Shown here one piece after another: positions 6,076 to 59,024 of a DNA stretch of 60,523 nucleotides. Origin of the DNA: a virus (taxonomy: Duplodnaviria > Caudoviricetes). The DNA lies in IMG/VR virus record IMGVR_UViG_3300020171_000030, positions 1 through 60,523 of that record; one strand, given 5' to 3'. Below the pieces are notes generated by a model. That model saw nothing but the letters and a program-made list of their open reading frames with translations, was not told where the DNA came from and did no database searches. The position numbers were made by a program, and so were the translations under genes. Each line of letters starts with the position of its first letter. Position 1 is the stretch's first letter.

Positions 6076-6422
6076 GCGAATACGGACTATTATTAAACAA
6101 TAACAAAGGAGAAAGAGTCTTTTCCACAGAAGATAGAGGTTTGTTGCGTACTAGTCAATATGGAGACATTACAGTCCCACACGCAACTGAATTAGATGGT
6201 GATTGGACAAATGGTGAAATTTTAGTAAATATAACACCGACTGCAAGCCGTATATTACTTGCTTGGACTAACATAGATTCAATATCTACCAACCAAAAGA
6301 TAACGGTAATGCCTTCGCATTTTAATGCGGCTAATGAGATTGACCAACTTATATTAACTAATATGCATCAAACTGATGATACATTGGTAAGATGGATAGT
6401 ATTTAAATATGATGAGAGATAA
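6072..6422 (+). CDS. Putative minor tail-tip protein
   Basis: Overlaps J stop; N-terminus MSEYGLLLNNNKG resembles that of the next ORF. Confidence 0.5.
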   Translation: MSEYGLLLNNNKGERVFSTEDRGLLRTSQYGDITVPHATELDGDWTNGEILVNITPTASRILLAWTNIDSISTNQKITVMPSHFNAANEIDQLILTNMHQTDDTLVRWIVFKYDER

Positions 6423-27720: not shown

Positions 27721-27918
27721 TTATATCCTTTCCTTCCAATAAGTGCTTAATCTCATTTCATCATCTATTTTTGTTTTTTCTTCGAAGATAATTACCTGAA
27801 TTTTATACATAGATAACGGCATGCTTGACCGAGAGAATCTCCAGTTGAAATAATTAAGTATCATCTTCTTCAAACTTTCTTTAAATATTTCTCGCATATA
27901 ATTTCCTTTTTTATAAAG

Positions 27919-27999
27919 TGCCGGAGCTCTGAATCGAACAGAGTTACTTAACACTCATACGATTGAGTGAGTGCCTTTAACCAATTAGGCTACTCCGGC
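27919..27999 (-). tRNA. tRNA-like gene (Leu-like, atypical anticodon arm)
   Basis: Minus strand GCCGGAG-TA-GCCT AATTGGTTAA AGGC ... CTCTG TTCGATT CAGAG-CTCCGGC-A: perfect acceptor, D and T arms; irregular anticodon arm; no encoded CCA. Confidence 0.7.
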
Positions 28000-39875: not shown

Positions 39876-40544
39876 ATGATAATAGAAGAAATAGAAATAT
39901 TAGAATACAATAAGGATGTAATGGAATTTAAGGGAGTTGATTTTAAGAATATGCCGATAGACCAATGGCTTTATTTTGCTAAGGCTAATTTGACTTACGG
40001 CGAACCGGGGATAGATTATTACGAACTTGCTGCATTACATCAAGCTTGTGAGACTTTAGGAAAGCGGCCTTTAACAATATTAGAAACCGGTATGTGTTAT
40101 GGAACTACCACCAGATATTTTTTAGTAAGGACTATAAAGTATGGCGGAGAGTTGCATACATTTGAAGTTGCTATCCGCGGTAAATTTAAAGAGACTATGC
40201 AGGAGTTAGGACTCTGGGATAAGATAAACTTGCACGGACATTCCATAAAAGATGCTTGGAACAAAGATATAGATGTTCTTTTTATAGACTCCGAGCATGC
40301 TCTTTCTGATGCATTAGGTGAATATATGCGGTTCAGAGAATGGCTTAAAGAAAATTCAATTATAGGATTCCATGATACAAGTTGTTGCGCTGGTGTTAAA
40401 AAAGCTCTTGAGATGATACAAGAAGTTGATGAGTTGGAATTAATAAGTGAAGTAGATAATAAAGCTAGTGCAGGAATAAAATTGTTTAGAAGAAAAGCAA
40501 AAAACAGAACTGATAGATCTTGGAATATGAATAAGAGAATATAA
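39876..40544 (+). CDS. Class I SAM methyltransferase (Methyltransf_24-like)
   Basis: ILETG..YG.TT, IDVLFIDSEH, IIGFHDT. Confidence 0.85.
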   Translation: MIIEEIEILEYNKDVMEFKGVDFKNMPIDQWLYFAKANLTYGEPGIDYYELAALHQACETLGKRPLTILETGMCYGTTTRYFLVRTIKYGGELHTFEVAIRGKFKETMQELGLWDKINLHGHSIKDAWNKDIDVLFIDSEHALSDALGEYMRFREWLKENSIIGFHDTSCCAGVKKALEMIQEVDELELISEVDNKASAGIKLFRRKAKNRTDRSWNMNKRI

Positions 40545-40546
40545 TT

Positions 40547-41593
40547 ATGAGTATGATAAGAGAAGGTAATATTAAGGTCAAAAAATTTTCTAAGGATGAC
40601 CCTGCGCTTACGTGTCATCATAAACTTTTAGAAAACGGACTTCCTGTAGCAGAGATTATAGAAGAGATAAAGGAAGAAGGATTTATAATTAAAAAAAGCG
40701 CTTGGGTGGAAGGTACGACTTTTGCGAAAATAGAACCTACAGCAATAGATTGGGAGCGATTTGGAGTATTTTTCGCTGATATGAACAATTTAGGAATAAC
40801 AGCGTATGATTTAGTATACCGGAATATATTGCGCCGTTTAGACGGACGAGTTATTGTGTGCGACTTAGCGAAATTATATCCTTCAGATTTTCCAGAAGAG
40901 CCTATTGTAAAAGATCTATTGAATAGTATATATTTGCTGGAAGAATATAAACAGGCCTTTCTAAAAGGATATCTTACAAAAAGGTTTATAAGTAAAGAAA
41001 GTCTTTTGGAAAAAGAATGCCTGTTTAACTACGACGGTTATCAAGATCTTTATTGTAATGATGAGTTAATTCGTAAAGGTATCAGGTCAAATAAAAGGCT
41101 TTCTATGATTAAAGATGATTTTAAAGATAAAAATGTTTTAGATCTTGGATGTTCTATGGGAATGTTCTGTCGAGAGGCAAAAAGAAAAAGAGCCTTTAAA
41201 GTATTGGGAGTAGATAATATAGTCCGGGGAAAAATCAGACATCTAATTGATCTTCCGGCTTATATTTCATATCTGGAAGGACTTGCTATCCAGTATCAAT
41301 GTGAGGATATAGAGCATATTAACCTCAAAAATAGAGTTATAGATACTAAATGGGACATAATTTTCTTTTGTGCGATGTTAGGGCATCTCAAAGAAGACCG
41401 CGAAGCTTATGTGAAATGGCTTAAAAGCATAACAAAGATAATATATTTTGAGTCTAATCTTGGAGGCACAGAAGAAAGGATGATGCCTTTTATAGATAGA
41501 ATAGAATTCTCTAAAGTTGAATGTTTAGGAGAGAGCGGAGATCCTGACAGGTATCCAGATAATCATTATATAATGTGGAGGTGTGAATGTTAG
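40547..41593 (+). CDS. Kinase-like domain + SAM methyltransferase fusion
   Basis: YDLVYRNIL...VIVCDLA (HxDxxxxN/DFG-like), AFLKGY; VLDLGCSMG.F, WDIIFF.A, IYFES. Confidence 0.65.
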   Translation: MSMIREGNIKVKKFSKDDPALTCHHKLLENGLPVAEIIEEIKEEGFIIKKSAWVEGTTFAKIEPTAIDWERFGVFFADMNNLGITAYDLVYRNILRRLDGRVIVCDLAKLYPSDFPEEPIVKDLLNSIYLLEEYKQAFLKGYLTKRFISKESLLEKECLFNYDGYQDLYCNDELIRKGIRSNKRLSMIKDDFKDKNVLDLGCSMGMFCREAKRKRAFKVLGVDNIVRGKIRHLIDLPAYISYLEGLAIQYQCEDIEHINLKNRVIDTKWDIIFFCAMLGHLKEDREAYVKWLKSITKIIYFESNLGGTEERMMPFIDRIEFSKVECLGESGDPDRYPDNHYIMWRCEC

Positions 41594-42279
41594 ACGATTA
41601 TAAAAACCCAAGTTTTTTTGCACCAGATTTTGATTATTTCAAAACATACCCTGCGCCGATGTTTGAGGCAGTGTTTAATCAGCATATAGGTCCTTGCAAT
41701 TCGACAACGCCTTATTTTGGGCCTCTGCTTTATTGGCTTTGTAGATGTGTGAATGCTTTAAATGTCATGGAAATAGGTTTAGCTCAAGGTTGGTCTAGTT
41801 TCTTTATGGCAAGCGCGGTTAAAGACGCAGGCGTCAGAAATGGCGTAGAGGGAACTTATTACGGAGTGGATATCGCTGATAAAAAAGAATTATTTGATGA
41901 AATGAATGCAAGGGGCGTAAATGCTAAGTTTATTCATAGTGATTCATTAAAATGGCTTGAAACTCAGACTGAAATAGAAAAGAATAAATTAGAATTAGTC
42001 TTTATCGATGGGTGGCATGAAACAGAACATGTCAAAAGAGAAGTAGAATTGATTTATCCACTTTTAAAAGATAAAGGAGACGGATATCTTATATTACACG
42101 ACGTTTCAGCTTGGTGTGAGGAAGTTTATCCAATTATATTGAATGACCCAAAATATAAATGGGAGTCAATTAGGTTTTTAATGAATTATGGGTTAGCAAT
42201 TATGCGGAAAATGGAAAATTTTCCTTATGATAAAATTTTCTGGCCTGATGGTTGTCAACATGAGCAAGGCGTTTTATAA
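41587..42279 (+). CDS. Class I SAM methyltransferase (Methyltransf_24-like)
   Basis: VMEIG...GWSS, LVFIDGWH, YLILHD. Confidence 0.85.
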   Translation: MLDDYKNPSFFAPDFDYFKTYPAPMFEAVFNQHIGPCNSTTPYFGPLLYWLCRCVNALNVMEIGLAQGWSSFFMASAVKDAGVRNGVEGTYYGVDIADKKELFDEMNARGVNAKFIHSDSLKWLETQTEIEKNKLELVFIDGWHETEHVKREVELIYPLLKDKGDGYLILHDVSAWCEEVYPIILNDPKYKWESIRFLMNYGLAIMRKMENFPYDKIFWPDGCQHEQGVL

Positions 42280-42293
42280 GATGGGGAATATTT

Positions 42294-43301
42294 ATGAGTA
42301 ATTATACATTCATTGTTTGTGCTGATATCCGCTATCTTCCTGAATGGGTTGCTTTAGCCAATTCGCTTGATTATGTTGGGAACAAAGAAGATATGCACTT
42401 CTACGGATATAAAATTCCGCAATCTGTAATTGAACAGTTTTCTAAATTAAATTATTCAATTATTTTTCATAGTATCACAGATGAAGAAATTTCAGCAAAT
42501 CATGGTTTAAGTGAAGTTGTCTGCCGAAAGCGATATTATTTCGCTAATGAAATAGGACAAGATTATAAGGCAGTATGTATTTTAGATGCAGATATGATAT
42601 TTGTTAGAGATCCTAAACTATATTTCGAAATTGCAGAAAAAACTGGGTTTGTATTAGGAGTCGTAAAGGAACAAAAAGAATCTTATAAAGACCCTCATCA
42701 CAAATTTAAAAATGAATGGATAATGCCTGAAGGTTTTATACCTGAATTTGATTTATGTAACTGTCCATTATTTGTAGATATGAAGATATGGGGAGAAGCA
42801 TTAAAAAGAAGTTATGAGATATTTATTGACGGTTTTGATGAGATGAAAGGTGATAATTTCAAAGGACCTGATATGTCAGCAATGAATTTAATGCTTGCAA
42901 AATATGGTTCTGAAGGTAAAACTATATCATTGCCTAATGTTCAATGGCTTTCTACAAACGAACAGGCTCTTAAATTATATCAAAGAGCTGTAACTGATTA
43001 TGGAAAAATAAAAACTGAAACAGGAACACCAATATATAGTTACCACGGGCAATATTTTCATCCTCGCTGGAGAAATGTACAGTTAATGAATAGAGATCAT
43101 TGTGCTAAAGGATATTTTAAAGCAAGTGGAGATTCTCTTGAATGTTCAAATAATATTGCACGAGGAGCTATGGAATTACTTTATGAAAGATTTAAAAAAA
43201 TGTTAGATTGGAAAATTATTATAGAAAAGAAAAATTATAGGCATCCTGAAAAGAACAGTGGATTTTTAGATATTGTTTCTGATGAGGATTTTTTAAAATG
43301 A
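42294..43301 (+). CDS. GT-A fold (GT8-like) glycosyltransferase
   Basis: D..YLP....L.NSL, ILDADMIF (DxD), DM.AMN. Confidence 0.7.
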   Translation: MSNYTFIVCADIRYLPEWVALANSLDYVGNKEDMHFYGYKIPQSVIEQFSKLNYSIIFHSITDEEISANHGLSEVVCRKRYYFANEIGQDYKAVCILDADMIFVRDPKLYFEIAEKTGFVLGVVKEQKESYKDPHHKFKNEWIMPEGFIPEFDLCNCPLFVDMKIWGEALKRSYEIFIDGFDEMKGDNFKGPDMSAMNLMLAKYGSEGKTISLPNVQWLSTNEQALKLYQRAVTDYGKIKTETGTPIYSYHGQYFHPRWRNVQLMNRDHCAKGYFKASGDSLECSNNIARGAMELLYERFKKMLDWKIIIEKKNYRHPEKNSGFLDIVSDEDFLK

Positions 43302-43819
43302 TTTATTTTTTCTCTAATTTTCCCTCTACATTTTATAGAACATGTATTATGTTTACAATGCCTTTGGCGAGATGGACAAAGTTTAAATATTTTTCCACAT
43401 ATAAAACACCTAGTTTTATTAGGATGATGATTAGCAAAAGGATTATGAATTTGACTATGTATTTTTTTAGTGATAAGTTTCAGATTTTCTATTCTATTGT
43501 CATCTTTTATCCCATTTATATGATGAACCAATTCTTTAGAAGTAAGATACTTTCCAATATGTTTCTCCATAATAATGCGGTGTTCCATAACATAACCGCG
43601 TATTTGTGCGAAAGGATGCTCAGGTTTATAAACAACAACATACCCAGTGGTAACTTTATGCCTACCACCTTTCCATTTAGGATTATTTTCTCCAAGCAAA
43701 TATTTATGTCTATCTTTCCAATGGCAGAATTGAGAACAATAATGTCGTTTATTTCTTTTAATTCTATACAGTTTCCTAAAAAGAATTTTTTTACAAGTAA
43801 AACATTTAATTTTAATCAT
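43235..43819 (-). CDS. HNH homing endonuclease inserted antisense in the cluster
   Basis: GENNPKWKGG, GYVMEHR.IME..IG..L...E.VHHINGIKDDNRIENL. Confidence 0.9.
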   Translation of the reverse strand: MIKIKCFTCKKILFRKLYRIKRNKRHYCSQFCHWKDRHKYLLGENNPKWKGGRHKVTTGYVVVYKPEHPFAQIRGYVMEHRIIMEKHIGKYLTSKELVHHINGIKDDNRIENLKLITKKIHSQIHNPFANHHPNKTRCFICGKIFKLCPSRQRHCKHNTCSIKCRGKIREKINHFKKSSSETISKNPLFFSGCL

Positions 43820-43876: not shown

Positions 43877-44713
43877 ATGCTACGTCTTAAGCGTATCTGG
43901 GAAGGCGACCAACCTAAATTGTCGCATTATTTGGATATACTGAAAAAAGGTAAAGTCGGACTTTGTTTTGGTCATGGGCTTGGAGATACTGTAATGTTTT
44001 TGAATGTTTTTGATAAATTGGCTTCATTATATCCTGATATTCAATTTGATTTAATACTCCAGAGAAATTTGGGTTTTGAGGAGTTAGTAGATGATATTGT
44101 AGGAAAAAATAAAGCAGTAGTTTATACGCATGATTTATCCTATAATCAAGAAACTTCTGAATATGATATTATAGCGGATATAGATTTTCCAATGTCAGAA
44201 AACCAAACTGAAATTACTAAAGCGGAAAAATGTTGCAGGGATGAGTTGGGGATTGAGTTAATATCAGGGCATAAAAAGATTACCTGTGGAGTTAATAAAC
44301 TTGTAGGATTACATCTACAAATAACCTGTTTGCCTGATAGCGCTAATGTGCCTTATGACATAGCAAAAAAGATATGGCAGGAAATTAAAGATGCAGGATA
44401 TATTCCTTTAGAAATTTTAATGGAACATGTTTTCCACAATCCAGTAAATAAGAAATACGATTTTATTGACCGACATTTAAGAGATATACCACCAAAAATT
44501 TCTACTTTAATAGGTATTATAGAAGATTGTAATAAAATCATTTGTTGTGTTAGCGGAGTTTTTCATACAGCATTGAGTATATTATCGCCTGAAAGAATAT
44601 GTTTATTAGAGAAAGATTTTTTAGCACCATCTTTTACTAAGTTATCCATTAAGAGAATTAATATCAAAGAATATCAAGACGGTTCTATAAAAGACTGGCT
44701 TCAAATTTTATAA
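43877..44713 (+). CDS. GT9-like (GT-B) glycosyltransferase
   Basis: HGLGDTVMF..V...L..LYPD N-terminal motif; ICCVSG.FH.ALS. Confidence 0.7.
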   Translation: MLRLKRIWEGDQPKLSHYLDILKKGKVGLCFGHGLGDTVMFLNVFDKLASLYPDIQFDLILQRNLGFEELVDDIVGKNKAVVYTHDLSYNQETSEYDIIADIDFPMSENQTEITKAEKCCRDELGIELISGHKKITCGVNKLVGLHLQITCLPDSANVPYDIAKKIWQEIKDAGYIPLEILMEHVFHNPVNKKYDFIDRHLRDIPPKISTLIGIIEDCNKIICCVSGVFHTALSILSPERICLLEKDFLAPSFTKLSIKRINIKEYQDGSIKDWLQIL

Positions 44714-44739: not shown

Positions 44740-44775
44740 AGCCAAAATTATTGTAAAAATGATTTTGGCTTTTTT
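44740..44775 (+). terminator. Hairpin/terminator between enzyme cluster and structural genes
   Basis: AGCCAAAATTATT...AATGATTTTGGCT-TTTTT. Confidence 0.55.
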
Positions 44776-44790
44776 AATTAGGAGGTAAAT

Positions 44791-45573
44791 ATGCCTAAAG
44801 AACTTGATTATATGGAATACTCCACTGACGCCCTTGCACAGGCGGCGTATGTAACGAATGCCACTGAAGCAATTATCTCCAACGCTGATATAGACAATGA
44901 AGATATGGCTGATATTACTGACTGGACTGATAGCGATAGCGGAACTGGAGTATCTACCCAAGAAACCTTTGATGGCAAGTCTTGTATGAAATTATTAAGT
45001 GGCGGAACGGCTGGTGGAGTAGCAAATAGAAATCAAGATATTGGAGCTTTCGGCACAAGAACAGTATTTTCTTTCAATGCCTATTTTGAAACTCTGGGAG
45101 TAACAGGTGATAATGACTTTTATTTTACAGCAAATAATGGGACTAATTACTTTTACTGTATTTTCGCTTCTGATGGCTTAGTCATTTATGATGGAGCAAC
45201 GTGGAATGAAATAGGAACGAATTTAGTAGTTTCAGATGTTTGGCAAGAATGGACTTTTGATTGTAACTGGACAACACAAAGAGCAGAAGTTTACCTAGAT
45301 GGTGTATTAAAAGCATCAAATGTAGATTTTTCTTATGCTCAACCAACAACTGACGGATTGATAAGGTTTATGCAAAATGGAGCAACCACAGTTAATGGAC
45401 TAACTTATATAGATTGGTTTAAGGCTGGAACTACTACCGCAATAAACCCTAATTTTCAGTATCTCCAATCCTACTCCGAATCCACCATCAAAACTCAAGG
45501 GAGTTATGCGTTGAAGGCGGTGGCGGCGATAACGGATAGTTTGAATAAGACTTTAACAAGGACAATAACATAA
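44791..45573 (+). CDS. Putative virion protein with lectin/LamG-like beta-sandwich
   Basis: Beta-rich, W..W.F......AEVYLDGVL...YIDWF pattern; AGGAGG RBS. Confidence 0.6.
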   Translation: MPKELDYMEYSTDALAQAAYVTNATEAIISNADIDNEDMADITDWTDSDSGTGVSTQETFDGKSCMKLLSGGTAGGVANRNQDIGAFGTRTVFSFNAYFETLGVTGDNDFYFTANNGTNYFYCIFASDGLVIYDGATWNEIGTNLVVSDVWQEWTFDCNWTTQRAEVYLDGVLKASNVDFSYAQPTTDGLIRFMQNGATTVNGLTYIDWFKAGTTTAINPNFQYLQSYSESTIKTQGSYALKAVAAITDSLNKTLTRTIT

Positions 45574-45583
45574 CAATAATCTA

Positions 45584-48232
45584 ATGGCAATAAACTTATC
45601 TGGTCTTAATGTAATCAAATTTGATATTTATGCTTCAAGAACAGGAAGTAATATCAAAATCGGCATCCACGACTCTGGCGGAACGACTACGGAAATTACT
45701 CCCAATATCACTTCTGCTAATACATGGCAAGCAGTTTCTTGGGATATTTCTGCTGTTAGTGATGCTAATAAAGATGCCATTGATAGTATTATTGTAACGA
45801 TAGTCAACGCAGACGCAGCGAATACCTTTTATATTGACAATATGCGTGCTGCGATAGCAGATTTGACAGACCAAAATTGGGTCTATTTTGATATTTATTC
45901 GAGTAGGACAGGTTCAAATGTTAAAGTGGGACTTCACGACGCCGATGGCATAACTACGGAAACAACGCCGAATGTCGTTTCAGCAAATAATTGGCAAGGA
46001 GTTAATTGGGACTTCTCTGGCGTTTCTAATGCCAACAAAGATGAAATAGATCAGGTTATAGTTACAGTAGTCAATGCAGATGCGGCCAATACTTTTTATA
46101 TTGATAATATGTTTGGGACAACTACTAGTTCTAGTTCTTCTAGTAGTTCTAGCTCTTCTAGTAGTTCAAAAAGTTCGAGTAGTTCAAGTTCTTCCAGTAG
46201 TTCATTAAGTTCTAGCAGTTCTAGTTCTTCTAGTTCATCAAGTAGTTCATTCAGTTCGAGCAGTTCTAGTTCTTCTAGTTCTTCAAGTAGCTTTAGTAGT
46301 TCAAGCAGTTCCAGTTCCTCAAGTAGTTCCAATAGTTCTAGCTCTTCAAGTTCATCAAGCAGTTCATTCAGCTCAAGCAGTTCTAGTTCTTCGAGTAGTT
46401 CTTTCAGCTCAAGCAGTTCCAGTTCCTCTAGTTCTTCGAGCAGTTCATTCAGCTCAAGCTCTTCCAGTTCTTCAAGCAGTTCAAGCAGTTCATTCAGCTC
46501 AAGCTCTTCCAGTTCTTCAAGCAGTTCAAGCAGTTCATTCAGCTCAAGCTCTTCCAGTTCTTCAAGCAGTTCAAGCAGTTCAAGCAGTTCATTCAGCTCA
46601 AGCTCTTCCAGTTCTTCAAGCAGTTCAAGCAGTTCAGAAAGCTCGAGCAGTTCAAGTTCTTCAAGTTCTTCAAGCAGTTCAGAAAGCTCAAGCAGTTCCA
46701 GTTCTTCAAGTTCTTCAAGCAGTTCAGAAAGCTCGAGCAGTTCAAGTTCTTCAAGCAGTTCAGAAAGTTCGAGCAGTTCAAGTTCTTCAAGTTCTTCAAG
46801 TTCTTCATTCAGCTCGAGCAGTTCAAGTTCTTCAAGTTCTTCATTCAGCTCGAGCAGTTCTAGTTCTTCAAGTTCTTCAAGCAGTTCAGAAAGCTCAAGC
46901 AGTTCCAGTTCTTCAAGTTCTTCAAGCAGTTCAGAAAGCTCGAGCAGTTCAAGTTCTTCAAGTTCTTCATTCAGCTCAAGCAGTTCCAGTTCTTCAAGTT
47001 CTTCAAGCAGTTCAGAAAGCTCGAGCAGTTCAAGTTCTTCAAGCAGTTCTTTCAGCTCGAGCAGTTCTAGTTCTTCCAGTTCTTCAAGCAGTTCTTTCAG
47101 CTCGAGCAGTTCTAGTTCTTCTAGTTCATCAAGCAGTTCATTAAGCTCAAGCAGTTCTAGTTCTTCAAGCAGTTCATTCAGTTCAAGCAGTTCCAGTTCC
47201 TCTAGTTCTTCGAGCAGTTCGTTCAGTTCAAGCAGTTCTAGTTCTTCAAGCAGTTCATTTAGCTCAAGCAGTTCCAGTTCCTCTAGTTCTTCGAGCAGTT
47301 CGTTCAGTTCAAGCAGTTCCAGTTCCTCTAGTTCTTCAAGCAGTTCATTTAGCTCAAGCAGTTCTAGTTCTTCCAGTTCTTCAAGCAGTTCATTCAGCTC
47401 AAGCAGTTCTAGTTCTTCCATCTCTTCAAGCAGTTCATTCAGCTCAAGCAGTTCTAGTTCTTCAAGTTCTTCTAGCAGTTCATTCAGCTCAAGCAGTTCT
47501 AGTTCTTCCAGTTCTTCAAGCAGTTCATTCAGCTCAAGCAGTTCTAGTTCTTCCAGTTCATCAAGCAGTTCATTCAGTTCAAGCAGTTCCAGTTCTTCTA
47601 GTTCTTCTAGTTCTTCTAGCAGTTCATTCAGTTCAAGCTCTTCCAGTTCTTCTAGTTCTTCTAGCAGTTCATTCAGTTCAAGCTCTTCCAGTTCTTCTAG
47701 TTCTTCTAGTTCTTCTAGCAGTTCATTCAGTTCAAGCTCTTCCAGTTCTTCTAGTTCTTCAAGCAGTTCATTCAGTTCAAGCAGTTCCAGTTCTTCAAGT
47801 AGCTCAAGCAGTTCATTCAGCTCAAGCAGTTCCAGTTCTTCAAGCAGTTCAAGCAGTTCATTCAGCTCGAGCAGTTCCAGTTCTTCAAGTAGCTCAAGCA
47901 GTTCATTCAGCTCAAGCAGTTCCAGTTCTTCAAGTAGCTCAAGCAGTTCATTCAGCTCAAGCAGTTCCAGTTCTTCAAGCAGTTCAAGCAGTTCATTCAG
48001 TTCAAGCAGTTCTAGCTCTTCCAGTTCTTCAAGTAGCTCTAGTTCTTCTAGTTCTTCAAGCAGTTCTAGTTCTTCAAGCAGTTCTAGTTCTTCAAGCAGT
48101 TCTAGTTCAGCTTCATCATTACCTCATAAAGTTGAATTTAAGGATAAAACATATAATTATAAATTCAATAATGATACTAGTGATTATAAGTTTAAAGATG
48201 ATACGAGTGATTATAAATTCAAAGAACAGTAA
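45584..48232 (+). CDS. Giant serine-rich protein: two CBM-like repeats + ~664-aa poly-Ser tract + short basic C-terminal repeats
   Basis: Duplicated FDIY.SRTGSN.K.G.HD..G.TTE.TPN..SAN.WQ.V.WD.S.VS.ANKD.ID..IVT.VNADAANTFYIDNM; Ser tract 46127-48118; C-terminus DTSDYKF twice. Confidence 0.8.
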   Translation: MAINLSGLNVIKFDIYASRTGSNIKIGIHDSGGTTTEITPNITSANTWQAVSWDISAVSDANKDAIDSIIVTIVNADAANTFYIDNMRAAIADLTDQNWVYFDIYSSRTGSNVKVGLHDADGITTETTPNVVSANNWQGVNWDFSGVSNANKDEIDQVIVTVVNADAANTFYIDNMFGTTTSSSSSSSSSSSSSSKSSSSSSSSSSSLSSSSSSSSSSSSSSFSSSSSSSSSSSSSFSSSSSSSSSSSSNSSSSSSSSSSSFSSSSSSSSSSSFSSSSSSSSSSSSSSFSSSSSSSSSSSSSSFSSSSSSSSSSSSSSFSSSSSSSSSSSSSSSSSFSSSSSSSSSSSSSSESSSSSSSSSSSSSSESSSSSSSSSSSSSSESSSSSSSSSSSESSSSSSSSSSSSSSFSSSSSSSSSSSFSSSSSSSSSSSSSSESSSSSSSSSSSSSSESSSSSSSSSSSFSSSSSSSSSSSSSSESSSSSSSSSSSFSSSSSSSSSSSSSSFSSSSSSSSSSSSSSLSSSSSSSSSSSFSSSSSSSSSSSSSSFSSSSSSSSSSSFSSSSSSSSSSSSSSFSSSSSSSSSSSSSSFSSSSSSSSSSSSSSFSSSSSSSSISSSSSFSSSSSSSSSSSSSSFSSSSSSSSSSSSSSFSSSSSSSSSSSSSSFSSSSSSSSSSSSSSSSSFSSSSSSSSSSSSSSFSSSSSSSSSSSSSSSSSFSSSSSSSSSSSSSSFSSSSSSSSSSSSSSFSSSSSSSSSSSSSSFSSSSSSSSSSSSSSFSSSSSSSSSSSSSSFSSSSSSSSSSSSSSFSSSSSSSSSSSSSSSSSSSSSSSSSSSSSSSSSSSSSASSLPHKVEFKDKTYNYKFNNDTSDYKFKDDTSDYKFKEQ

Positions 48233-48246: not shown

Positions 48247-48552
48247 ATGCCAAACATAAAGCACGAATACTATGTTGCTGATGATGTAACTTTTAGAGGC
48301 TCATTTGAAATTGATGGCGTGGCGCAAACGCCAGATAGCGGATCTGCTAAAGTGCAGATATGGAAAGTCGGTTCTACTACGGCGGTATTGGCTGAGACTG
48401 CCGCGACAATATCAACGACACAAATAAGATATAAATATACGCCTTTAGTTATAGGCACATTTACATTATTCTTTTATGCTACATTTAATAACGGCGCGGA
48501 TAAAAGGACAGGAGTGATTGAATTTCTGGTTAAAAAGAAAGAGGCGCATTGA
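48247..48552 (+). CDS. Small beta-sandwich structural protein (hypothetical)
   Basis: AGGAGGTG RBS; Ig-like strand pattern. Confidence 0.5.
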   Translation: MPNIKHEYYVADDVTFRGSFEIDGVAQTPDSGSAKVQIWKVGSTTAVLAETAATISTTQIRYKYTPLVIGTFTLFFYATFNNGADKRTGVIEFLVKKKEAH

Positions 48553-54190: not shown

Positions 54191-54508
54191 ATGCCATACC
54201 CTAATACCCATAGTGCTAGGGTAACAGAGCCATTACCTCAAAATTCTGCTATTTACGCGACTAAGAGTATAGCTCCAGGTATCAGCATTATTTTACAAAA
54301 ACCTAAAAGCGATCCTAACGCCTCTATGAAAGTACAGTCCTACCGTTTTGGCAAACATCAGTTCACTCCTGAAGAAGCAAAAGCGTGGTTGAAAAAACAC
54401 AATATTTCTTATATTTCATTTGAACCGGCAAGAACCGGGAATGAGGAAAATAGGAAAGAAATTATTGAAAGGATAACTAAAGAACTCTCAGGTGCCATAA
54501 TTGCTTAA
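54191..54508 (+). CDS. Head-morphogenesis-associated hypothetical protein
   Basis: MPYPN.HSAR...QSYRF.K..FT.EEAKAWLK.H...FEPA; upstream of protease. Confidence 0.6.
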   Translation: MPYPNTHSARVTEPLPQNSAIYATKSIAPGISIILQKPKSDPNASMKVQSYRFGKHQFTPEEAKAWLKKHNISYISFEPARTGNEENRKEIIERITKELSGAIIA

Positions 54509-57101
54509 ACTTAATCAGACCAATATAGTCTGTTTTTTAGAAAGCACGCCTTCCGGTGATATCTGGAAAGTGATGATTATTGAAGAAGGACTTTCTAAAA
54601 ACGGAAAGTATTACACCAAAGAAGCCCTCCAAAAAGCAGTCCCTCTTTTCGAAAAATCTAAAGTATGTTTCTACGAATGGAAAGATAAACATTTTGACCA
54701 TATTCCTTTATCAATAGAAAAAATTCGACCAGAAGGGTTTCCTCTCCAAACAGCAGGGTATCTTGATAATGTTAAATACGAAACTGTAAAAATTGAGGGG
54801 AGAGAAGTCTCTGGTTTAACTGGGTCTCTGCATTTACTCGAAGAAAATAGTAAAGTTCAAGAGTTAAAGCAGATGCTCGTGAATGCCTGGCAGAAAGGAT
54901 TAAAAAACTTTCTTGGGTTATCAATAAACGCGGAAGGGCCATCAAGCGTGCGTATGCTTAACGGTCAACCGGTAACGGTGGTGAATGGGATTACTAAAGT
55001 ATTCAGCACAGATTTTGTAACTCAACCCGCGGCTGGCGGTGAGTTACTAAAAATAATCGAAAGCATTAACCAAAGAGGAGGATTAGAACAAATGTGGAAA
55101 AAGATTCTTGAAGCCTTAAAAGCTTGGAATCCGAAGTTGTTAGAAAGCGTTGATATCGAGAATATCACAGAAGAAGAGGTAATCAGTATTTTTGAGTCGT
55201 TGGTTACAGAAGCAAAAACAAAAAAATCTTCTAAATGCGCTGAGTTAGAAGGTATTGTAAAGCATTTAAAGGATAAGAAATATGATGAAGCAGAAAAACT
55301 GCTAAATGAAGTCATTAAAATGAAAGAAATGACTGATGAGGAGTTATGTAAAGCTGATGATACGACATTGTCTCCTGAACAGAAAAAGAAAAAAGCAGAA
55401 TTGCTTAAGGCACAATCAGATGCTGCTGCTGCAGGTCAGACAGAAGCGAAGAAGAAACAAGATGAAATGGATAGGAAAAATAAAGATTTAGAGGCCAGAT
55501 TAGCTGATATAGATAATCAGTTAAAGGTCAGGGAATGTAAAGAAATGCTTGAATTGGCTCTTGGTGAAAGCAATCTCCCTGAACCGATAAAGAGTAAAAT
55601 CCGTAATACCTTTAAAAGTAAGGTATATAAAGAGGCTGAATTAAAAGAAGCAGTTAAGATTGAACGCGAGACGTTAGCGAAGTTAATCGAAAGCAGAGCC
55701 GTAATCGATTTTGGTGGAGATGTTGAAGGGTCTTTCGTTGAAAGAGAACCGATTACAAGGCTGCAGGCGTCTTTGGATTTAATGTTTGATTATAAGCCAA
55801 CTGATGATGAAAAAGAGAAATATAAAGGTATTGATAGATTTAGTTCATTAAGAGAAGCCTATGTGGTTTATACAGATGATCCACAGATTTCAGGTATGTT
55901 AGGCCCTAAAGCCTTAGCAAGATTACAAGAAGCTACTGAGGCAAGTTTTGCTTATGCATTAGGTTATTCTATGCAAAGACGTATGCTTCCTGAATATCGG
56001 GCAATACCAGAACTTTGGAAAAAAATAGCGGTATCTACACCGATAAAAGATTTTAAATTGCAAGAAAGAATTCAGTGGGGAGGTTTTGGCGTTCTTCCTA
56101 CGGTTCAGGCCGCAAGAACAGTTGCTGGCACTCCTATTGACTCTGAAACTCCGGCTTATCCTGAACTTGGATTCCCGGCTGACCAAGAAGCAACCTATGC
56201 AGTGATGACAAAAGGTGGTATCGTTACCTTAACCAGAAGAATGATTATTGACGACGATTTGAAAGTTCTTACAGGTATTCCAAAGAGAGTCGGCAAGGCT
56301 GCTGGTTATACATTGAATCAGTTTGTATTTGATTTAATGATAGGTTATGGCGCTTCTGGTATCAATACAGCAACCATTTATGACAGCGCGGTACTTTATA
56401 TTGCAGCACATAAGAATTTAAGGACAGGAGTTTTAGGTTATGATAACCTGCAAGATTTATTGAATGATATGTGGTATCAGTGCGAGCTTGGATATAAGAC
56501 TGATGTTGCAACACAGTTAGAAGCAGCAGGAACTTCGTTAGTTGTAACAGCTACTCATGCCGCATTTTTTAAAGCCGGAGATTATGCTTGGCTAGACGGC
56601 GAAATCGTAAGAGTAGATGCCTCGGATGGCAGCGCTACATTGATTATTGCAAGAGGTATGTTTGGAACGACTGATGCTCAGCATATAGTAGGTGTTGATG
56701 TGCGTAAAGTAACACAGTTCTTAGCCTTAGAGAAACCTATTCTCTGGGTGCCTAGAGCATTAAACGGAACAGCGTTAGCGCTGCAAAAATCTGAAAAGCA
56801 TCCTGAAACTGCGGAAGGCGGAATTAACACATTGAGAGACCAGTTTGATGTTCAGCAAAGCCCGTTCCTTCGCGGTGATGAGAATAACTATTATCTATCA
56901 GCAAAACCTTCTGATGTTGAAGGTATCGAAATAGGATTTTTGAACGGAAAAGAAGAACCTGAGATTTTAGTGCAAGACCAGCCTACAGTCGGCAATGTGT
57001 TTGTGTATGATACGATTCGCTACAAAGTACGTCATGAGTACGGCGGAGCGGTTGTTGACTTTAGAGCGTTTGCTGGTTCAATAGTATCAGGAGTAGCATA
57101 A
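54501..57101 (+). CDS. Prohead protease-scaffold-major capsid (Mu gpT-like) fusion
   Basis: G.SKNG.YY, GLSINA, STDFVT.PAAGG protease motifs; coiled-coil scaffold; DFK, K.G....TR.MII.DD, FLNG.EEP, YKVRH.YG...VDFR capsid motifs. Confidence 0.88.
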   Translation: MLKLNQTNIVCFLESTPSGDIWKVMIIEEGLSKNGKYYTKEALQKAVPLFEKSKVCFYEWKDKHFDHIPLSIEKIRPEGFPLQTAGYLDNVKYETVKIEGREVSGLTGSLHLLEENSKVQELKQMLVNAWQKGLKNFLGLSINAEGPSSVRMLNGQPVTVVNGITKVFSTDFVTQPAAGGELLKIIESINQRGGLEQMWKKILEALKAWNPKLLESVDIENITEEEVISIFESLVTEAKTKKSSKCAELEGIVKHLKDKKYDEAEKLLNEVIKMKEMTDEELCKADDTTLSPEQKKKKAELLKAQSDAAAAGQTEAKKKQDEMDRKNKDLEARLADIDNQLKVRECKEMLELALGESNLPEPIKSKIRNTFKSKVYKEAELKEAVKIERETLAKLIESRAVIDFGGDVEGSFVEREPITRLQASLDLMFDYKPTDDEKEKYKGIDRFSSLREAYVVYTDDPQISGMLGPKALARLQEATEASFAYALGYSMQRRMLPEYRAIPELWKKIAVSTPIKDFKLQERIQWGGFGVLPTVQAARTVAGTPIDSETPAYPELGFPADQEATYAVMTKGGIVTLTRRMIIDDDLKVLTGIPKRVGKAAGYTLNQFVFDLMIGYGASGINTATIYDSAVLYIAAHKNLRTGVLGYDNLQDLLNDMWYQCELGYKTDVATQLEAAGTSLVVTATHAAFFKAGDYAWLDGEIVRVDASDGSATLIIARGMFGTTDAQHIVGVDVRKVTQFLALEKPILWVPRALNGTALALQKSEKHPETAEGGINTLRDQFDVQQSPFLRGDENNYYLSAKPSDVEGIEIGFLNGKEEPEILVQDQPTVGNVFVYDTIRYKVRHEYGGAVVDFRAFAGSIVSGVA

Positions 57102-57557: not shown

Positions 57558-58736
57558 ATGCCAAAACCTACCAGATATAAATATAGCGTTGCCAATAAAA
57601 GAAGGGCATCGTTAAGTAAATCAATCAATTATTCTCTTACAGAGAATGATATATTACGAAGTGGATATTTATTCGTTACTCTTACCGCAGCCTGCACTTT
57701 AACCCTTCCTGTTGCAAGCACTAATTTAAGAGGCGTAAGTATTTATGTAACTACATCTGACCAGGGTAATGCCTATGTTGCAGCTGGTTTTGGTGGTGGT
57801 GGTGGTAGTTACGATACAGCGCAGATAGGAAGATATGAGACTGCAGAGTTCTGGTGTGATGGCAGTTATTGGTATGCTTTAGATGTAACTGTTACCGGAA
57901 CTGGATCTAGTTCATCTAGTTCTTCCAGTTCTTCAAGCAGTTCAAGCAGTTCTTCCAGTTCAAGCTCAAGCAGTTCATTGAGTTCGAGTAGTTCATCAAG
58001 TTCGAGCAGTTCATTGAGTTCAAGCAGTTCATCTTCAAGCAGTTCATCTTCAAGCAGTTCATCTTCAAGCAGTTCAGAAAGTTCTTCTAGTTCGAGCTCA
58101 AGCAGTTCAAGCAGTTCATCAAGCAGTTCAGAAAGTTCTTCTAGTTCATCTTCAAGCAGTTCAAGCAGCTCAGAAAGTTCAAGCAGCTCAAGCAGCTCAA
58201 GCAGCTCATTGAGTTCAAGTTCTTCCAGTTCTTCAAGCAGTTCATTGAGTTCAAGTTCTTCAAGTAGTTCATCTAGCAGTTCTATAACAACTGGTTGGCT
58301 TGGGATAGATAACACTTGGTTATCTTCTGACTGTGGAGATGATGGCGGTTCTACAACTATTGAGAATGGCTTAGCTGGGACGAATGTTTGGAAACATACT
58401 GCTAATGAGACACATCAGTTCATTCTTGATTTAAAGAGTATACTTAATGTGCAGCAAGTTCGAGGCCGTTCAGGCGGTGATTTAAGCTGTGACCCGATAA
58501 ATGTTAATATTTATGTCAGCGAAGATGGAATTACTTGGGGGACAGCAGTAGCCGCTAATATCGCAACTTGGCAAGATGTTACCACTTGGCAAGAAGTCGC
58601 TTGTACAGCTAAGAATGGCAGATATGTCAAAGTAGAGATCACTACTACTGAAAGCGCAGTTAAAACGCTTGAGTTCGGCGGACCTGCAGGTGCGTTCTTT
58701 AAGATCTTCGATGTTTACGCCGTAAATGCAGTTTAG
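57558..58736 (+). CDS. Head decoration/fibre protein: anchor domain + 126-aa poly-Ser linker + discoidin (F5/8)-like domain
   Basis: N-terminus aligns to 57190 ORF; Ser tract 57906-58283; W.H...FILDL...IYVSEDG..W...GRYVKVEI. Confidence 0.75.
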   Translation: MPKPTRYKYSVANKRRASLSKSINYSLTENDILRSGYLFVTLTAACTLTLPVASTNLRGVSIYVTTSDQGNAYVAAGFGGGGGSYDTAQIGRYETAEFWCDGSYWYALDVTVTGTGSSSSSSSSSSSSSSSSSSSSSSSSLSSSSSSSSSSSLSSSSSSSSSSSSSSSSSSSSESSSSSSSSSSSSSSSSSESSSSSSSSSSSSSESSSSSSSSSSSLSSSSSSSSSSSLSSSSSSSSSSSSITTGWLGIDNTWLSSDCGDDGGSTTIENGLAGTNVWKHTANETHQFILDLKSILNVQQVRGRSGGDLSCDPINVNIYVSEDGITWGTAVAANIATWQDVTTWQEVACTAKNGRYVKVEITTTESAVKTLEFGGPAGAFFKIFDVYAVNAV

Positions 58737-58793: not shown

Positions 58794-59024
58794 ATGGCAT
58801 ACCCTGCTTATAAATGTCCATTTAAAAGTAGTACTACAGCTGGACTAACTTGTGAAAATGTCGCTTGCGGTGCGTTTAATGTAATAGAAAACGATTGCAA
58901 TCCAATTATGATATGGCGCAAGCAATTTCAACTATCAGGAAAAGTAGTCCCTAATACGAATACTTATTCCAGTTCGTCCAGTTCTAGTTCATCTTCTAGT
59001 TCCAGTTCATCTACTACTGCATAA
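58794..59024 (+). CDS. Small 4-Cys protein with 15-Ser C-terminal tail
   Basis: CPF...C...C.......C; Ser run 58968-59012. Confidence 0.65.
   Translation: MAYPAYKCPFKSSTTAGLTCENVACGAFNVIENDCNPIMIWRKQFQLSGKVVPNTNTYSSSSSSSSSSSSSSSTTA

What the first reader, a model, noticed from the sequence alone, without database searches (positions are those of the whole stretch)
46127..48118. ~664-residue poly-serine tract punctuated quasi-periodically by F, E or L
Seen: 2 kb of almost pure Ser codons mixing TCN and AGY, broken roughly every 10-18 residues by one Phe. Glu spacers are confined to a middle block, and occasional Leu, Asn, Lys or Ile also occur. The frame stays open and ends in a normal C-terminus. 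Use of both Ser codon families argues for protein-level selection rather than a simple microsatellite. Inference: an extended, modified stalk that displays the N-terminal CBM-like domains, with the spacer residues possibly acting as enzyme register marks.
Basis: partly seen in the sequence, partly recalled or inferred. Interest (0 to 1): 0.85.

Follow-up and report, generated by a model that had tools for sequence, protein, structure and literature searches.

The report
Giant polyserine tether in phage protein
An uncultured groundwater phage encodes a protein whose middle is about 660 serines in a row, a feature conserved in its relatives beside sugar-adding enzymes, so it is probably a long sugar-coated thread on the virus particle.

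Summary
ORF 45584..48232 (882 aa) holds a 661-residue tract (46127..48109) with 617 Ser, 32 Phe, 7 Glu and 5 others. It is built from a 45-nt unit (Ser14 + one spacer) and uses all six Ser codons.

The window is a ~95%-complete phage record. The tract is the conserved core of a family. In 23 of 23 viral loci, and in 21 of 23 metagenome loci (the other two lack upstream sequence), a 32- to 963-residue tract of mostly ~90% Ser ends in "SSLP"-type tails with 2-6 nine-residue repeats. It lies just upstream of a 101-aa gene and the terminase. N-terminal "cargo" varies from nothing to lectin-like domains.

Here the cargo domain is split over two ORFs; one relative has them fused. A GT8-like and a GT9-like glycosyltransferase, the latter closest in fold to LPS heptosyltransferases and the protein-serine heptosyltransferase TibC, always lie upstream. 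Three more particle-module proteins of this phage carry poly-Ser.

Best reading (0.45): an O-glycosylated, particle-anchored tether. Glycosylation, virion location and exact tract length are unproven. This scan noted similar poly-Ser phage proteins on other DNA; my literature searches found no published description.

The parts
45584..48232 (+). Poly-Ser protein gene, 882 aa: two truncated beta-sandwich modules, a 661-aa Ser tract and a C-terminal repeat tail
   Evidence: ORF list. Orthologues in 23/23 viral loci and 21/23 metagenome loci.
45584..46126 (+). N-terminal 181 aa: two tandem copies of a ~90-aa module that lacks its first two strands
   Evidence: Alignment to the intact module in relatives. 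342 database hits at E<=1e-3, up to 84% identity per copy. No Pfam family. Partner pLDDT 92.
46127..48109 (+). Poly-Ser tract, 661 aa, 45-nt units (Ser14 + F/E/L...)
48110..48229 (+). Conserved C-terminal tail: ASSLP followed by nine-residue repeats of the ...YKF(K/N)(D/N)xT type; proposed docking element
   Evidence: Tail alignment across 9 distinct variants. 2-6 repeats in more distant relatives. The docking role is inferred.
44791..45573 (+). Upstream ORF, 260 aa: ELDYxEYS motif, LamG-like domain and the first two strands of the module. It is the split-off half of the cargo.
   Evidence: It tiles with 45584.. onto the single-ORF cassette of relatives and is fused in L020. Fold of the L020 cassette matches LamG/ConA-like lectins. 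Complex prediction gives weak support.
45571..45586 (+). Gene-fission junction: TAA stop, 10-nt gap, ATG
   Evidence: Confirmed letter for letter by a contig of run X1. L004 is split at the same point with a TAATG overlap.
43877..44713 (+). 278-aa GT9-like (GT-B fold) glycosyltransferase; candidate serine O-glycosyltransferase
   Evidence: Foldseek top hits are TibC at E 1e-6, then WaaC/WaaF. VIA-align top 4 of 48,161 chains are all GT9, Z 10.2-11.2. Weak sequence hints. Syntenic in relatives.
42294..43301 (+). 335-aa GT8-like (GT-A) glycosyltransferase
   Evidence: Pfam GT8 at E 3e-4, below cut-off, for the window protein. 3 of 5 relatives hit GT8 (best 7.3e-6) and 5 of 5 hit Nucleotid_trans. 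Syntenic.
36057..38564 (+). 835-aa fusion: methyltransferase, GT9 domain, methyltransferase/O-MT
   Evidence: Pfam, PHROG
39876..42279 (+). Three methyltransferase genes (39876..40544, 40547..41593, 41587..42279; the last is O-MT / rhamnosyl-O-MT-like)
   Evidence: Pfam. Also present upstream in L020, and in part in L033/L035.
44740..44770 (+). Terminator-like hairpin between the GT block and the cargo/poly-Ser pair
   Evidence: 13-bp stem plus T-run; the number of sites is not above shuffles. A similar hairpin is visible in L020 junction DNA.
48247..48552 (+). 101-aa conserved protein, 14 nt downstream, with a strong Shine-Dalgarno sequence; candidate partner of the tail
   Evidence: 84-92% identical in 21 viral loci. 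Small family of ~100-aa stand-alone proteins. Function unknown.
644..1609 (+). DUF2460 tail protein (directly after the tape-measure end) with a C-terminal ~125-aa poly-Ser tract (1232..1606)
   Evidence: The same tract is present in 3 of 3 relatives that hold the gene.
57558..58736 (+). 392-aa protein after the capsid gene: N-domain, ~126-aa poly-Ser (57906..58283), galactose-binding-like domain
   Evidence: Relatives.
58794..59024 (+). 76-aa Cys-rich protein ending in Ser15
   Evidence: Relatives.
46096..47421 (-). Mirror ORF (E/L-rich, 441 aa) on the opposite strand; a by-product of AGY/TCN codon composition, not a gene
   Evidence: the antisense frame has 0 stops across the whole tract. 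It lies wholly inside the tract-derived repeat and has no unique ends.

Best explanation
The gene encodes a long, flexible, probably O-glycosylated poly-serine tether that belongs to the phage particle.

Shown:
- The conserved core of the family is a near-pure Ser tract plus a C-terminal tail of nine-residue repeats.
- The N-terminus is a swappable cargo.
- The tract grows and shrinks in frame by repeat units.
- A GT9-like glycosyltransferase (fold closest to LPS heptosyltransferases and TibC) and a GT8-like one are always encoded just upstream.
- Other particle-module proteins of the same phage carry poly-Ser appendages.

Inferred:
- The glycosyltransferases, with the neighbouring methyltransferases, load sugars on the serines in the cytoplasm. 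This would keep the chain soluble and extended, with a contour length of roughly 0.2 micrometre for 661 residues.
- The C-tail docks the chain on the particle, perhaps through the tightly coupled 101-aa protein.
- The distal end carries a lectin-like head that catches glycans on host cells or matrix.

In this phage the head is a separate 260-aa LamG-like protein. It would re-join the tether by supplying the two missing strands of the module.
For: (1) Conservation.
- The poly-Ser + tail ORF lies directly upstream of the 101-aa gene in 22 of 23 viral loci. In the 23rd an HNH-like ORF lies between them.
- It is present in 21 of 23 metagenome loci. The other 2 have under 170 nt upstream, and at least 6 of the loci are the same contigs as the viral ones.
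- Ser fraction is 0.91-0.96 in the viral set and mostly 0.83-0.94 in the more distant ones.

(2) Protein-level constraint: see the non-Ser spectrum.

(3) In-frame length change. Eleven contigs share an identical 2,922-nt ORF. L024 differs by one 318-nt deletion inside the tract, with flanks identical over 3 kb. L050 and L051 have 308 and 314 residues.

(4) Sugar enzymes.
- The GT8-like and 278-aa genes are present upstream in all 17 loci (6 distinct lineages, window included) that hold at least 4.3 kb upstream.
- The 278-aa profile is found in 4 of 5 relatives' records, and in 2 of 2 that are at least 90% complete.
- The 278-aa model (pLDDT 72) matches TibC, WaaC and WaaF.
- TibC heptosylates serines, not threonines, of a protein (PMC4358343, passages read).

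(5) Particle context.
- The gene sits in the tightly packed block of 101-aa gene, small terminase-like gene, large terminase and portal.
- The DUF2460 tail protein, a capsid-adjacent protein with a galactose-binding-like domain, and a small Cys-rich protein also carry poly-Ser. They do so in relatives too.
- The capsid-adjacent protein shows the same logic in mirror order: anchor domain, poly-Ser, lectin-like domain.

(6) Split head.
- The window's two ORFs tile the single-ORF cassette without loss, and L020 has them fused.
- The complex prediction gave weak support: score 0.52, best of 3 controls 0.00. The mark was reached by 58 of 80 solved complexes and 2 of 110 mismatched pairs, but at 0.60 or under by only 7 of those 80 and by both mismatches that passed.
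- The runs agree in at least 98% of contacts, and partner pLDDT is at least 91. My own alignments were used, so those counts hold only roughly. Halves of a split gene tend to pass by likeness.
Against: - No sugar, no transcript and no virion proteome has been seen.
- A terminator-like hairpin (44740..44770) separates the GT block from the cargo/poly-Ser pair, so co-transcription is not assured.
- The GT8 match of the window's own protein is below Pfam's cut-off (20.9 vs 24.3 bits). The 278-aa protein is GT9-like mainly by predicted fold; its sequence hits are weak (E 0.0043 and 0.16).
- GT9 and GT8 enzymes more often act on lipopolysaccharide, so they could modify the host envelope instead.
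- No sugar-nucleotide synthesis genes were found among the ORFs scanned.
- The gene lies before the terminase, not inside the tail module.
- The partner of the C-tail is unknown. The 101-aa protein has no recognised family.
- Cargo-less and very short versions exist.
- The exact tract length in this window is not confirmed by any spanning read or contig.
Confidence: 0.45

Rival explanations
1. Passive linker only. The tract is an unmodified, flexible poly-serine spacer, an oversized version of the polyserine linkers of bacterial carbohydrate-active enzymes. The neighbouring glycosyl- and methyltransferases act on something else, such as the host envelope or another phage component.
For: - Polyserine linkers that join carbohydrate-binding modules are established, at about 80% Ser (PMC2699552, passages).
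- The cargo here is lectin-like.
- GT9 and GT8 families are best known from lipopolysaccharide synthesis (family descriptions).
- A terminator-like hairpin lies between the GT block and the gene pair.
Against: - Known linkers average 39-44 residues; here the range is 32 to 963.
- The GT8-like and GT9-like genes keep their place next to the poly-Ser gene in all 6 lineages with enough upstream sequence.
- Cargo-less proteins made of tract plus tail are hard to explain as linkers.
- From general knowledge (recalled, not tested): long unmodified poly-serine is poorly soluble.
Confidence: 0.25
2. Not a particle part. The protein acts free in the infected cell or after lysis. For example, it could be a cohesive 'sticker and spacer' polymer, with aromatic residues spaced by serines, that forms a gel or condensate. 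It could also be a released decoy or adhesive.
For: - There is a regular hydrophobic or aromatic residue about every 15 residues, and about 5-9% non-Ser in all lineages.
- Cargo-less forms exist.
- The gene lies outside the canonical tail block.
- No N-terminal signal-like hydrophobic stretch is visible in the translations (by eye, no predictor run).
Against: - The gene is tightly coupled to head-packaging genes.
- Poly-Ser also sits on a bona fide tail protein, DUF2460, directly after the tape measure.
- A conserved C-terminal repeat tail suggests docking to a fixed partner.
- The spacing is a by-product of unit amplification and is irregular in other tracts.
Confidence: 0.12
3. Artefact or decaying gene. 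The tract length, or the whole tract, is an assembly expansion of a short repeat, or the split gene pair is a pseudogene.
For: - No contig of four runs spans the tract.
- Contigs of relatives often break inside it: L016, L019, L036, L049, L053 and others.
- The cargo domain is interrupted by a stop.
Against: - Eleven separate assemblies give the identical 909-residue tract.
- All 127-mers of the window's tract are unique.
- The frame stays open through 661 codons, although about 5% of random single-base changes of these codons would be stops.
- The split is clean, with a start codon exactly at the junction. It recurs in L004 and, at another point, in L033/34 with TAATG overlaps.
- The junction is confirmed by an independent contig.
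Confidence: 0.04
4. The real gene is the antisense E/L-rich ORF 46096..47421 (441 aa), a coiled-coil-like protein.
For: The antisense frame has no stop across the whole tract, and an ORF is listed.
Against: - This openness follows automatically from AGY/TCN codons.
- The plus-strand frame alone continues into conserved non-repeat N- and C-terminal parts.
- All neighbouring genes from 34 kb to the window's end are on the plus strand, apart from one HNH insert.
Confidence: 0.01

Closest known systems
Polyserine linkers (PSLs) of modular carbohydrate-active enzymes in Saccharophagus degradans, Teredinibacter turnerae and Cellvibrio japonicus
   Same: Both are near-pure serine tracts that join lectin- or CBM-type modules to the rest of a protein. 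Their function is also still unproven (PMC2699552, passages read).
   Different: PSLs average 39-44 residues at 80-83% Ser. Here the tract is 661 residues at 93% Ser, and up to 963 in relatives. The context is a phage gene rather than a secreted bacterial enzyme. No catalytic domain is present, a conserved C-terminal repeat tail is present, and dedicated transferase genes lie alongside.
Serine-rich repeat glycoproteins of Gram-positive bacteria (GspB, Fap1, SRRPs)
   Same: Both are very long Ser-rich stalks that carry a binding region. SRRPs are glycosylated inside the cell by dedicated transferases encoded next to the gene (abstracts of PMC5578698 and PMC7948813 seen in the listing).
   Different: SRRP repeats are mixed Ser-x motifs (recalled). 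They also use an N-terminal signal, accessory Sec export and a cell-wall anchor. Here the runs are Ser14 homopolymers, no such export genes were found among the ORFs scanned, and the protein ends in ...KFKEQ.
Bacterial autotransporter heptosyltransferases (TibC-TibA, AAH-AIDA-I)
   Same: A GT9-family enzyme puts many heptoses on serines, not threonines, of an adhesin (PMC4358343, passages). The 278-aa neighbour matches TibC among its best structural hits.
   Different: The TibC acceptor is a folded beta-helix repeat, not poly-Ser. The TibC chains matched are 371-390 residues against 278 here, and TibC is a dodecamer by its PDB entry titles. WaaC and WaaF score equally well. Activity and sugar are unknown here.
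Virion glycosylation in mycobacteriophages (Che8, Rita)
   Same: Phage-encoded glycosyltransferases attach glycans to the phage's own structural proteins, forming a glycan shield. This is as summarised in PMC11256854 (passages read), citing Freeman et al. 2023, which I did not read.
   Different: There the acceptors are the major capsid proteins, as summarised in PMC11256854. Here the proposed acceptors are 100- to 900-residue poly-Ser appendages on several proteins, in an unrelated phage lineage from groundwater metagenomes.
Capsid or tail display proteins such as T4 Hoc or T5 pb10 (recalled, not searched)
   Same: Both involve a small anchor domain on the particle that holds out a binding domain.
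   Different: Those use folded Ig-like domains as the arm. Here the arm would be a disordered poly-Ser chain many times longer.

Membership tests
Polyserine linker (PSL) of modular carbohydrate-active proteins | Tract of about 80% or more serine between folded modules | tested here: met
   617 of 661 residues are Ser, lying between the beta-sandwich modules and the C-tail.
Polyserine linker (PSL) of modular carbohydrate-active proteins | Length of tens of residues (averages 39-44) | tested here: not met
   661 residues here, 32-963 in relatives. Averages are from PMC2699552.
Polyserine linker (PSL) of modular carbohydrate-active proteins | Joins a CBM to a glycoside hydrolase, esterase or lyase domain in a secreted protein | tested here: inconclusive
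   No Pfam catalytic domain in either ORF. The cargo is lectin-like by fold in the fused orthologue. No signal-peptide predictor was run.
Serine-rich repeat glycoprotein (SRRP) system | Accessory Sec genes and GtfA/GtfB beside the gene | tested here: not met
   None among the 40 window ORFs scanned with Pfam. Small ORFs were not all scanned.
Serine-rich repeat glycoprotein (SRRP) system | C-terminal LPXTG cell-wall anchor | tested here: not met
   The protein ends ...DYKFKEQ. 'SSLPHKV' is not LPXTG.
Serine-rich repeat glycoprotein (SRRP) system | Dedicated glycosyltransferases encoded next to the Ser-rich gene | tested here: met
   GT8-like and GT9-like genes lie upstream in all 6 lineages with enough sequence.
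GT9 / bacterial autotransporter heptosyltransferase (for ORF 43877..44713) | GT-B fold closest to GT9 enzymes | tested here: met
   Foldseek: TibC at E 1.1e-6, followed by WaaC, 3tov and WaaF. VIA-align: WaaF Z 11.2 (rmsd 2.8, 127 aligned), WaaC Z 11.2, TibC Z 11.0 (237 aligned), 3tov Z 10.2. These are the top four of 48,161 chains. The model has pLDDT 72.
GT9 / bacterial autotransporter heptosyltransferase (for ORF 43877..44713) | Sequence match to the GT9 family model | tested here: inconclusive
   Pfam GT9 in 1 of 6 members at E 0.16. PDB profile hit 3tov at E 0.0043. One Atlas look-alike cluster has GT9 in 32% of members.
GT9 / bacterial autotransporter heptosyltransferase (for ORF 43877..44713) | Transfers heptose to protein serines | not testable with these tools
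   Needs an enzyme assay or glycoproteomics.
GT8 glycosyltransferase (for ORF 42294..43301) | Match to the GT8 / GT-A nucleotide-sugar transferase models and a DxD motif | tested here: inconclusive
   The window protein scores 20.9 bits against a cut-off of 24.3. 3 of 5 orthologues match GT8 (best E 7.3e-6) and 5 of 5 match Nucleotid_trans. Invariant D98 and D100 are present. The profile found no PDB sequence.
LamG / ConA-like lectin domain (for ORF 44791..45573) | Jelly-roll fold matching LamG-type domains | tested here: inconclusive
   Shown for the fused orthologue L020 (laminin LG, neurexin LNS, trans-sialidase lectin domain), on a model with pLDDT 50-73 in that part. The window ORF is 31% identical to it and has no Pfam hit of its own.
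Phage virion glycosylation (Che8 type) | Glycans covalently bound to structural proteins | not testable with these tools
   Only the gene content can be seen here.

The most novel reading that the evidence does not exclude
This phage lineage dresses its particle in a mucin-like 'fur'. At least four particle proteins carry poly-serine chains. A phage-encoded, TibC-like serine O-glycosyltransferase, together with a GT8 enzyme and several methyltransferases, loads these chains with methylated sugars. The giant protein is a roughly 0.2-micrometre fishing line. Its C-terminal nine-residue repeats plug into the particle through the 101-aa protein. Its lectin head is a separate polypeptide held on by strand complementation after a gene fission that happened at least twice in the lineage.
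Probability: 0.22. Interest if true: 0.85.

Novelty: new variant of a known kind. Interest (0 to 1): 0.7.

Why it matters
- A survey of 102 phage proteomes put the largest low-complexity region at 115 residues (PMC6821194, passages read). These tracts are six to eight times longer and are conserved, so phage particles may carry long disordered appendages that structural studies do not see.
- If the serines are glycosylated, this would be a second, very different form of phage self-glycosylation beside the mycobacteriophage case. It bears on how phages find hosts, stick to matrices and evade recognition.
- The tract's in-frame length changes offer a simple natural ruler to test how tether length affects adsorption.
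- The clean, recurrent splitting of a beta-sandwich domain into two genes is a natural example of fragment complementation worth testing.

Tried and rejected
- tblastn of the N-terminal 181 aa against 50,697 deposited phage genomes: no match.
- Search with the 45-residue tail region in 5.8 billion proteins: 55 candidates, none at E<=1e-3. The query is too short for that database.
- None of the 120 listed module relatives has a 40-residue window with at least 70% Ser. The module alone therefore does not predict poly-Ser.
- The 101-aa protein has no Pfam or PHROG family. Atlas look-alikes are unnamed viral clusters, one with BppU_N in 27% of members, which is a lead only. The profile search found 22 clusters, mostly ~100-aa stand-alone proteins. 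Pfam on four long weak hits was uninformative.
- No tRNA-Ser is present in the window.
- No RNA holder was listed among the sequencing runs.
- No contig spans the tract.
- A shared programmed frameshift at the ORF junction was rejected. The frame offset is +1 here and -1 in L004 and L033, each ORF has its own ATG exactly at the junction, and no slippery site is seen.
- My synonymous/non-synonymous count among 15-residue units is circular for the Ser positions, because the units were defined by non-Ser residues. I do not use it.
- Promoter-like sites are not above shuffles.
- Literature: 'polyserine' + 'bacteriophage' gave 19 papers. 'poly-serine' + 'phage' gave 8 papers. 'serine-rich' + phage + tail fiber + low complexity gave 50 papers, of which 12 were listed. 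None of the listed titles or abstracts describes a poly-serine phage protein.


Full report
WHAT IS THERE

The window is a whole IMG/VR virus record of 60,523 bp, linear and about 95% complete. It has about 35% G+C. The plus-strand half holds these genes, in order:
- a large terminase, a portal and a capsid gene;
- the C-terminal end of a tape-measure gene, at the start of the record;
- a DUF2460 protein, a baseplate-hub-like protein and a Phage-tail_3 protein.

The minus-strand half holds replication genes. The runs that hold the stretch are labelled groundwater or freshwater metagenomes.

ORF 45584..48232 encodes 882 residues. Residues 182-842 (46127..48109) are 617 Ser, 32 Phe, 7 Glu, 2 Leu and one each of Lys, Asn and Ile.
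- The serine runs between spacers are 14 long 28 times, 11 long 9 times and 17 long 3 times.
- Tandem Repeats Finder reports a 45-nt unit in 44 copies with 77% matches. The basic unit is therefore Ser14 plus one spacer, with variants that differ by 9 nt.
- All six Ser codons are used (AGY 311, TCN 306), in proportions close to those of 14 other ORFs of the window.
- 29 of the 32 Phe are TTC. The Phe were therefore inherited with the amplified unit rather than arising many times.

The opposite-strand ORF 46096..47421 is a mirror effect of the codon composition: that frame has no stop across the whole tract.

IS THE LENGTH REAL?

- Contigs of the best holder run match both flanks and the junction with the upstream ORF without a single difference. 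No contig of four runs spans the tract.
- The longest exact internal repeat is 101 nt, and every 127-mer is unique. An assembler using long words and 150-nt reads can therefore resolve the tract, whereas 31-mer contigs cannot (only 48% of the 31-mers occur once).
- Eleven contigs from separate records carry a letter-identical 2,922-nt orthologue.
- I take the tract as real. Its exact length in this window is likely but unproven.

A FAMILY, NOT A ONE-OFF

I used the 101-aa gene that follows 14 nt downstream as an anchor and found 21 related viral loci.
- With the window and L004, 22 of 23 loci have a poly-Ser ORF ending right before the anchor. In L016 an HNH-like ORF lies between them.
- In the metagenome collection, 21 of 23 loci show the same arrangement. 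The other two have under 170 nt upstream. At least six of these loci are the same contigs as the viral ones.
- The tract ranges from 32 residues, in a 78-aa protein (L070), to 963 (L064).
- The serine fraction is 0.91-0.96 in the viral set.
- All of these proteins end in a tail of the 'SSLP' type followed by two to six nine-residue repeats of the ...YKF(K/N)(D/N)xT type.

What lies before the tract varies:
- 16-25 residues only;
- a zinc-ribbon;
- one or two copies of the module found here;
- a 385-residue or 441-residue domain set.

The conserved core is therefore tract plus tail, and the N-terminus is a swappable cargo.

SELECTION AND DYNAMICS

Ten distinct tracts were pooled, 3,983 residues in all. 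They contain 3,718 Ser, 147 Phe, 43 Leu, 18 Tyr, 16 Ile, 14 Arg, 13 Asn, 10 Glu and single Lys, His, Thr and Met. There is no Pro, Ala, Gly, Cys, Val, Asp, Gln or Trp.

Random single-base changes of the window's Ser codons would give mainly Arg, Thr, Cys, Gly, Asn, Ile, Pro and Ala, and 5% stops. The chain is therefore kept as serine, with a small and mostly hydrophobic or aromatic punctuation.

Length changes occur in frame:
- L024 differs from the eleven identical contigs by one 318-nt deletion, with flanks identical over 3 kb.
- L033 and L034 differ by 54 nt.
- L050 and L051 differ by 6 residues.

The 15-residue period is the footprint of unit amplification. Other lineages and the other tracts of this phage have irregular spacing. 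I therefore see no support for spacers as register marks, although their hydrophobic bias looks selected.

THE N-TERMINAL PART AND A SPLIT GENE

Residues 1-181 are two copies of a ~90-residue module. The module has no Pfam family but has 342 relatives at E<=1e-3, at up to 84% identity.

In relatives the module is about 35 residues longer at its N-terminal side. It always follows a variable lectin-type domain and a conserved 'ELDYxEYS' motif. In the window those missing residues, the motif and the variable domain form the upstream ORF 44791..45573. That ORF stops 10 nt before the ATG of the poly-Ser ORF. The two ORFs tile the cassette with nothing lost.

Comparison with relatives:
- L020 has everything in one ORF.
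- L004 is split at the same point with a TAATG stop-start overlap.
- L033/34 are split before the last strand, again with TAATG.

The different frame offsets, and a start codon exactly at each junction, argue for true gene fission rather than a shared frameshift.

A fold of the fused L020 cassette is confident only in the module (pLDDT 73-85, eight strands). Overall it matches LamG/ConA-like lectin domains.

The complex prediction for the window's two halves gave weak support:
- The score was 0.52 and the best of 3 controls was 0.00.
- The mark was reached by 58 of 80 solved complexes and 2 of 110 mismatched pairs. At 0.60 or under it was reached by only 7 of those 80 and by both mismatches that passed.
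- The runs agree in at least 98% of contacts, and partner pLDDT is at least 91.
- My own alignments were used, so those counts hold only roughly. Split-gene halves tend to pass by likeness.

Given the fused orthologue, I think re-association is likely.

THE NEIGHBOURS

Upstream lie these genes:
- an 835-aa fusion of methyltransferase, GT9 domain and methyltransferase;
- three methyltransferases, one of them rhamnosyl-O-methyltransferase-like;
- a GT8-like protein;
- an HNH endonuclease on the other strand;
- a 278-aa protein.

The 278-aa protein's predicted structure has pLDDT 72.
- By Foldseek it is closest to TibC (E about 1e-6), then to WaaC and WaaF.
- By an independent aligner it is closest to WaaF, WaaC, TibC and another GT9 enzyme. 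These are the top four of 48,161 chains, with Z 10.2-11.2.
- TibC puts heptose on serines, not threonines, of an adhesin (PMC4358343, passages read).

The GT8-like and 278-aa genes are found upstream of the poly-Ser gene in all 17 loci with at least 4.3 kb upstream, which represent 6 distinct lineages. They are also found in 4 of 5 relatives' records; the fifth record is 74% complete.

Two points count against a simple operon. A terminator-like hairpin lies at 44740..44770, and no sugar-nucleotide genes are present among the ORFs scanned.

POLY-SER ELSEWHERE IN THE SAME PHAGE

Three more ORFs of the window carry poly-Ser, and relatives keep all three:
- The DUF2460 tail protein, directly after the tape-measure end, finishes in about 125 residues of poly-Ser.
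- A 392-aa protein just after the capsid gene has an N-domain, about 126 residues of poly-Ser and then a galactose-binding-like domain.
- A 76-aa Cys-rich protein ends in Ser15.

Tracts of different genes share 32-35-nt exact stretches and the same context around the GAA spacers. Poly-Ser is thus a lineage-wide appendage of particle-module proteins, and the giant tract is its extreme.

HOW IT MOST LIKELY WORKS

Shown: the architecture, the conservation, the in-frame length dynamics, the adjacency of the two transferases and their fold class, the split cargo, and poly-Ser on other particle-module proteins.

Inferred:
- The transferases glycosylate the serines in the cytoplasm.
- The tail docks the chain on the particle, possibly through the tightly coupled 101-aa protein.
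- The chain extends to roughly 0.2 micrometre. This uses about 0.35 nm per residue, a recalled figure.
- The lectin-like head binds glycans.

I give this 0.45. The main rival is an unmodified passive linker whose neighbouring enzymes serve other targets (0.25). A free, non-particle polymer gets 0.12. An artefact or decaying gene gets 0.04, and the antisense ORF 0.01.

COMPARISON AND NOVELTY

It works like a polyserine linker and like a serine-rich repeat glycoprotein stalk, but it fails membership tests of both. It is 15 or more times longer than known linkers, and it has no accessory Sec genes, no LPXTG and no mixed Ser-x repeats.

The closest enzymatic precedent is TibC-type serine heptosylation. 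The closest phage precedent is capsid glycosylation in mycobacteriophages (PMC11256854, passages).

A survey of 102 phage proteomes gave 115 residues as the largest low-complexity region (PMC6821194, passages). My three literature searches found no description of poly-serine phage proteins.

This scan's own earlier notes, which are AI notes and unchecked, report poly-Ser tracts on phage particle proteins beside heptose or glycosyltransferase cassettes in several other genomes. None of them shares this lineage's anchor or 278-aa protein. I reached the TibC link before reading those notes.

I class the finding as a new variant of a known kind, with interest 0.7.

Noticed in passing
window 27918..27999 (-): The only tRNA-like gene found has a four-base anticodon (aatc) and no assigned amino acid. 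It could be a frameshift-suppressor-like tRNA or a prediction artefact.
   Followed up: no
window 644..1609, 57558..58736, 58794..59024 (+): Three further ORFs carry poly-Ser tracts: the DUF2460 tail protein, a capsid-adjacent protein with a galactose-binding-like domain, and a small Cys-rich protein. Relatives keep all three.
   Followed up: partly
window 44791..46126; loci L002-L014, L020: A widespread cassette consists of a conserved 'ELDYxEYS..AQAAYV' motif, a variable lectin-type domain (LamG, discoidin or other) and a highly conserved ~125-aa beta-sandwich module. There are 342 hits. The module is up to 84% identical in proteins named from Elusimicrobiota and other uncultured lineages on contigs up to 257 kb. 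This may be a clue to the host, or a recombination cassette for swapping binding domains.
   Followed up: partly
window 43235..43819 (-); L016 1210..1941: HNH endonuclease ORFs are inserted at different places in the same block: between the GT8-like and GT9-like genes here, and between the poly-Ser gene and the 101-aa gene in L016. They look like mobile homing-type inserts.
   Followed up: no
window 46637..47015 and 58077..58173: The Glu spacer codon GAA is the reverse complement of the Phe spacer codon TTC at the same unit position. The GAA spacers of two different genes share the same flanking letters. This could mean unit exchange between genes or a tiny inversion.
   Followed up: partly
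L018 4462..5703 and 5722..6333: In this relative a 413-aa ORF with a beta-helix-like C-terminal region itself ends in poly-Ser. It is followed 18 nt later by a 203-aa poly-Ser + tail ORF. The split there may lie inside the tract.
   Followed up: no
window 54501..57101 (+): The capsid-family match covers only residues 480-857 of an 866-aa ORF. A long N-terminal part, possibly protease or scaffold, is fused to the capsid protein.
   Followed up: no
L016, L019, L036, L049, L053, L059, L061, L062, L065-L067: Many contigs of relatives begin inside the poly-Ser tract. The tract is a frequent assembly break point, so tract lengths in short-read assemblies should be treated with care.
   Followed up: partly
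L059 vs L004/L060; L064: The number of nine-residue repeats in the C-terminal tail also varies. It is 2 in L059 against 3 in L004/L060, which carry a closely similar tail, and up to about 6 in L064.
   Followed up: no
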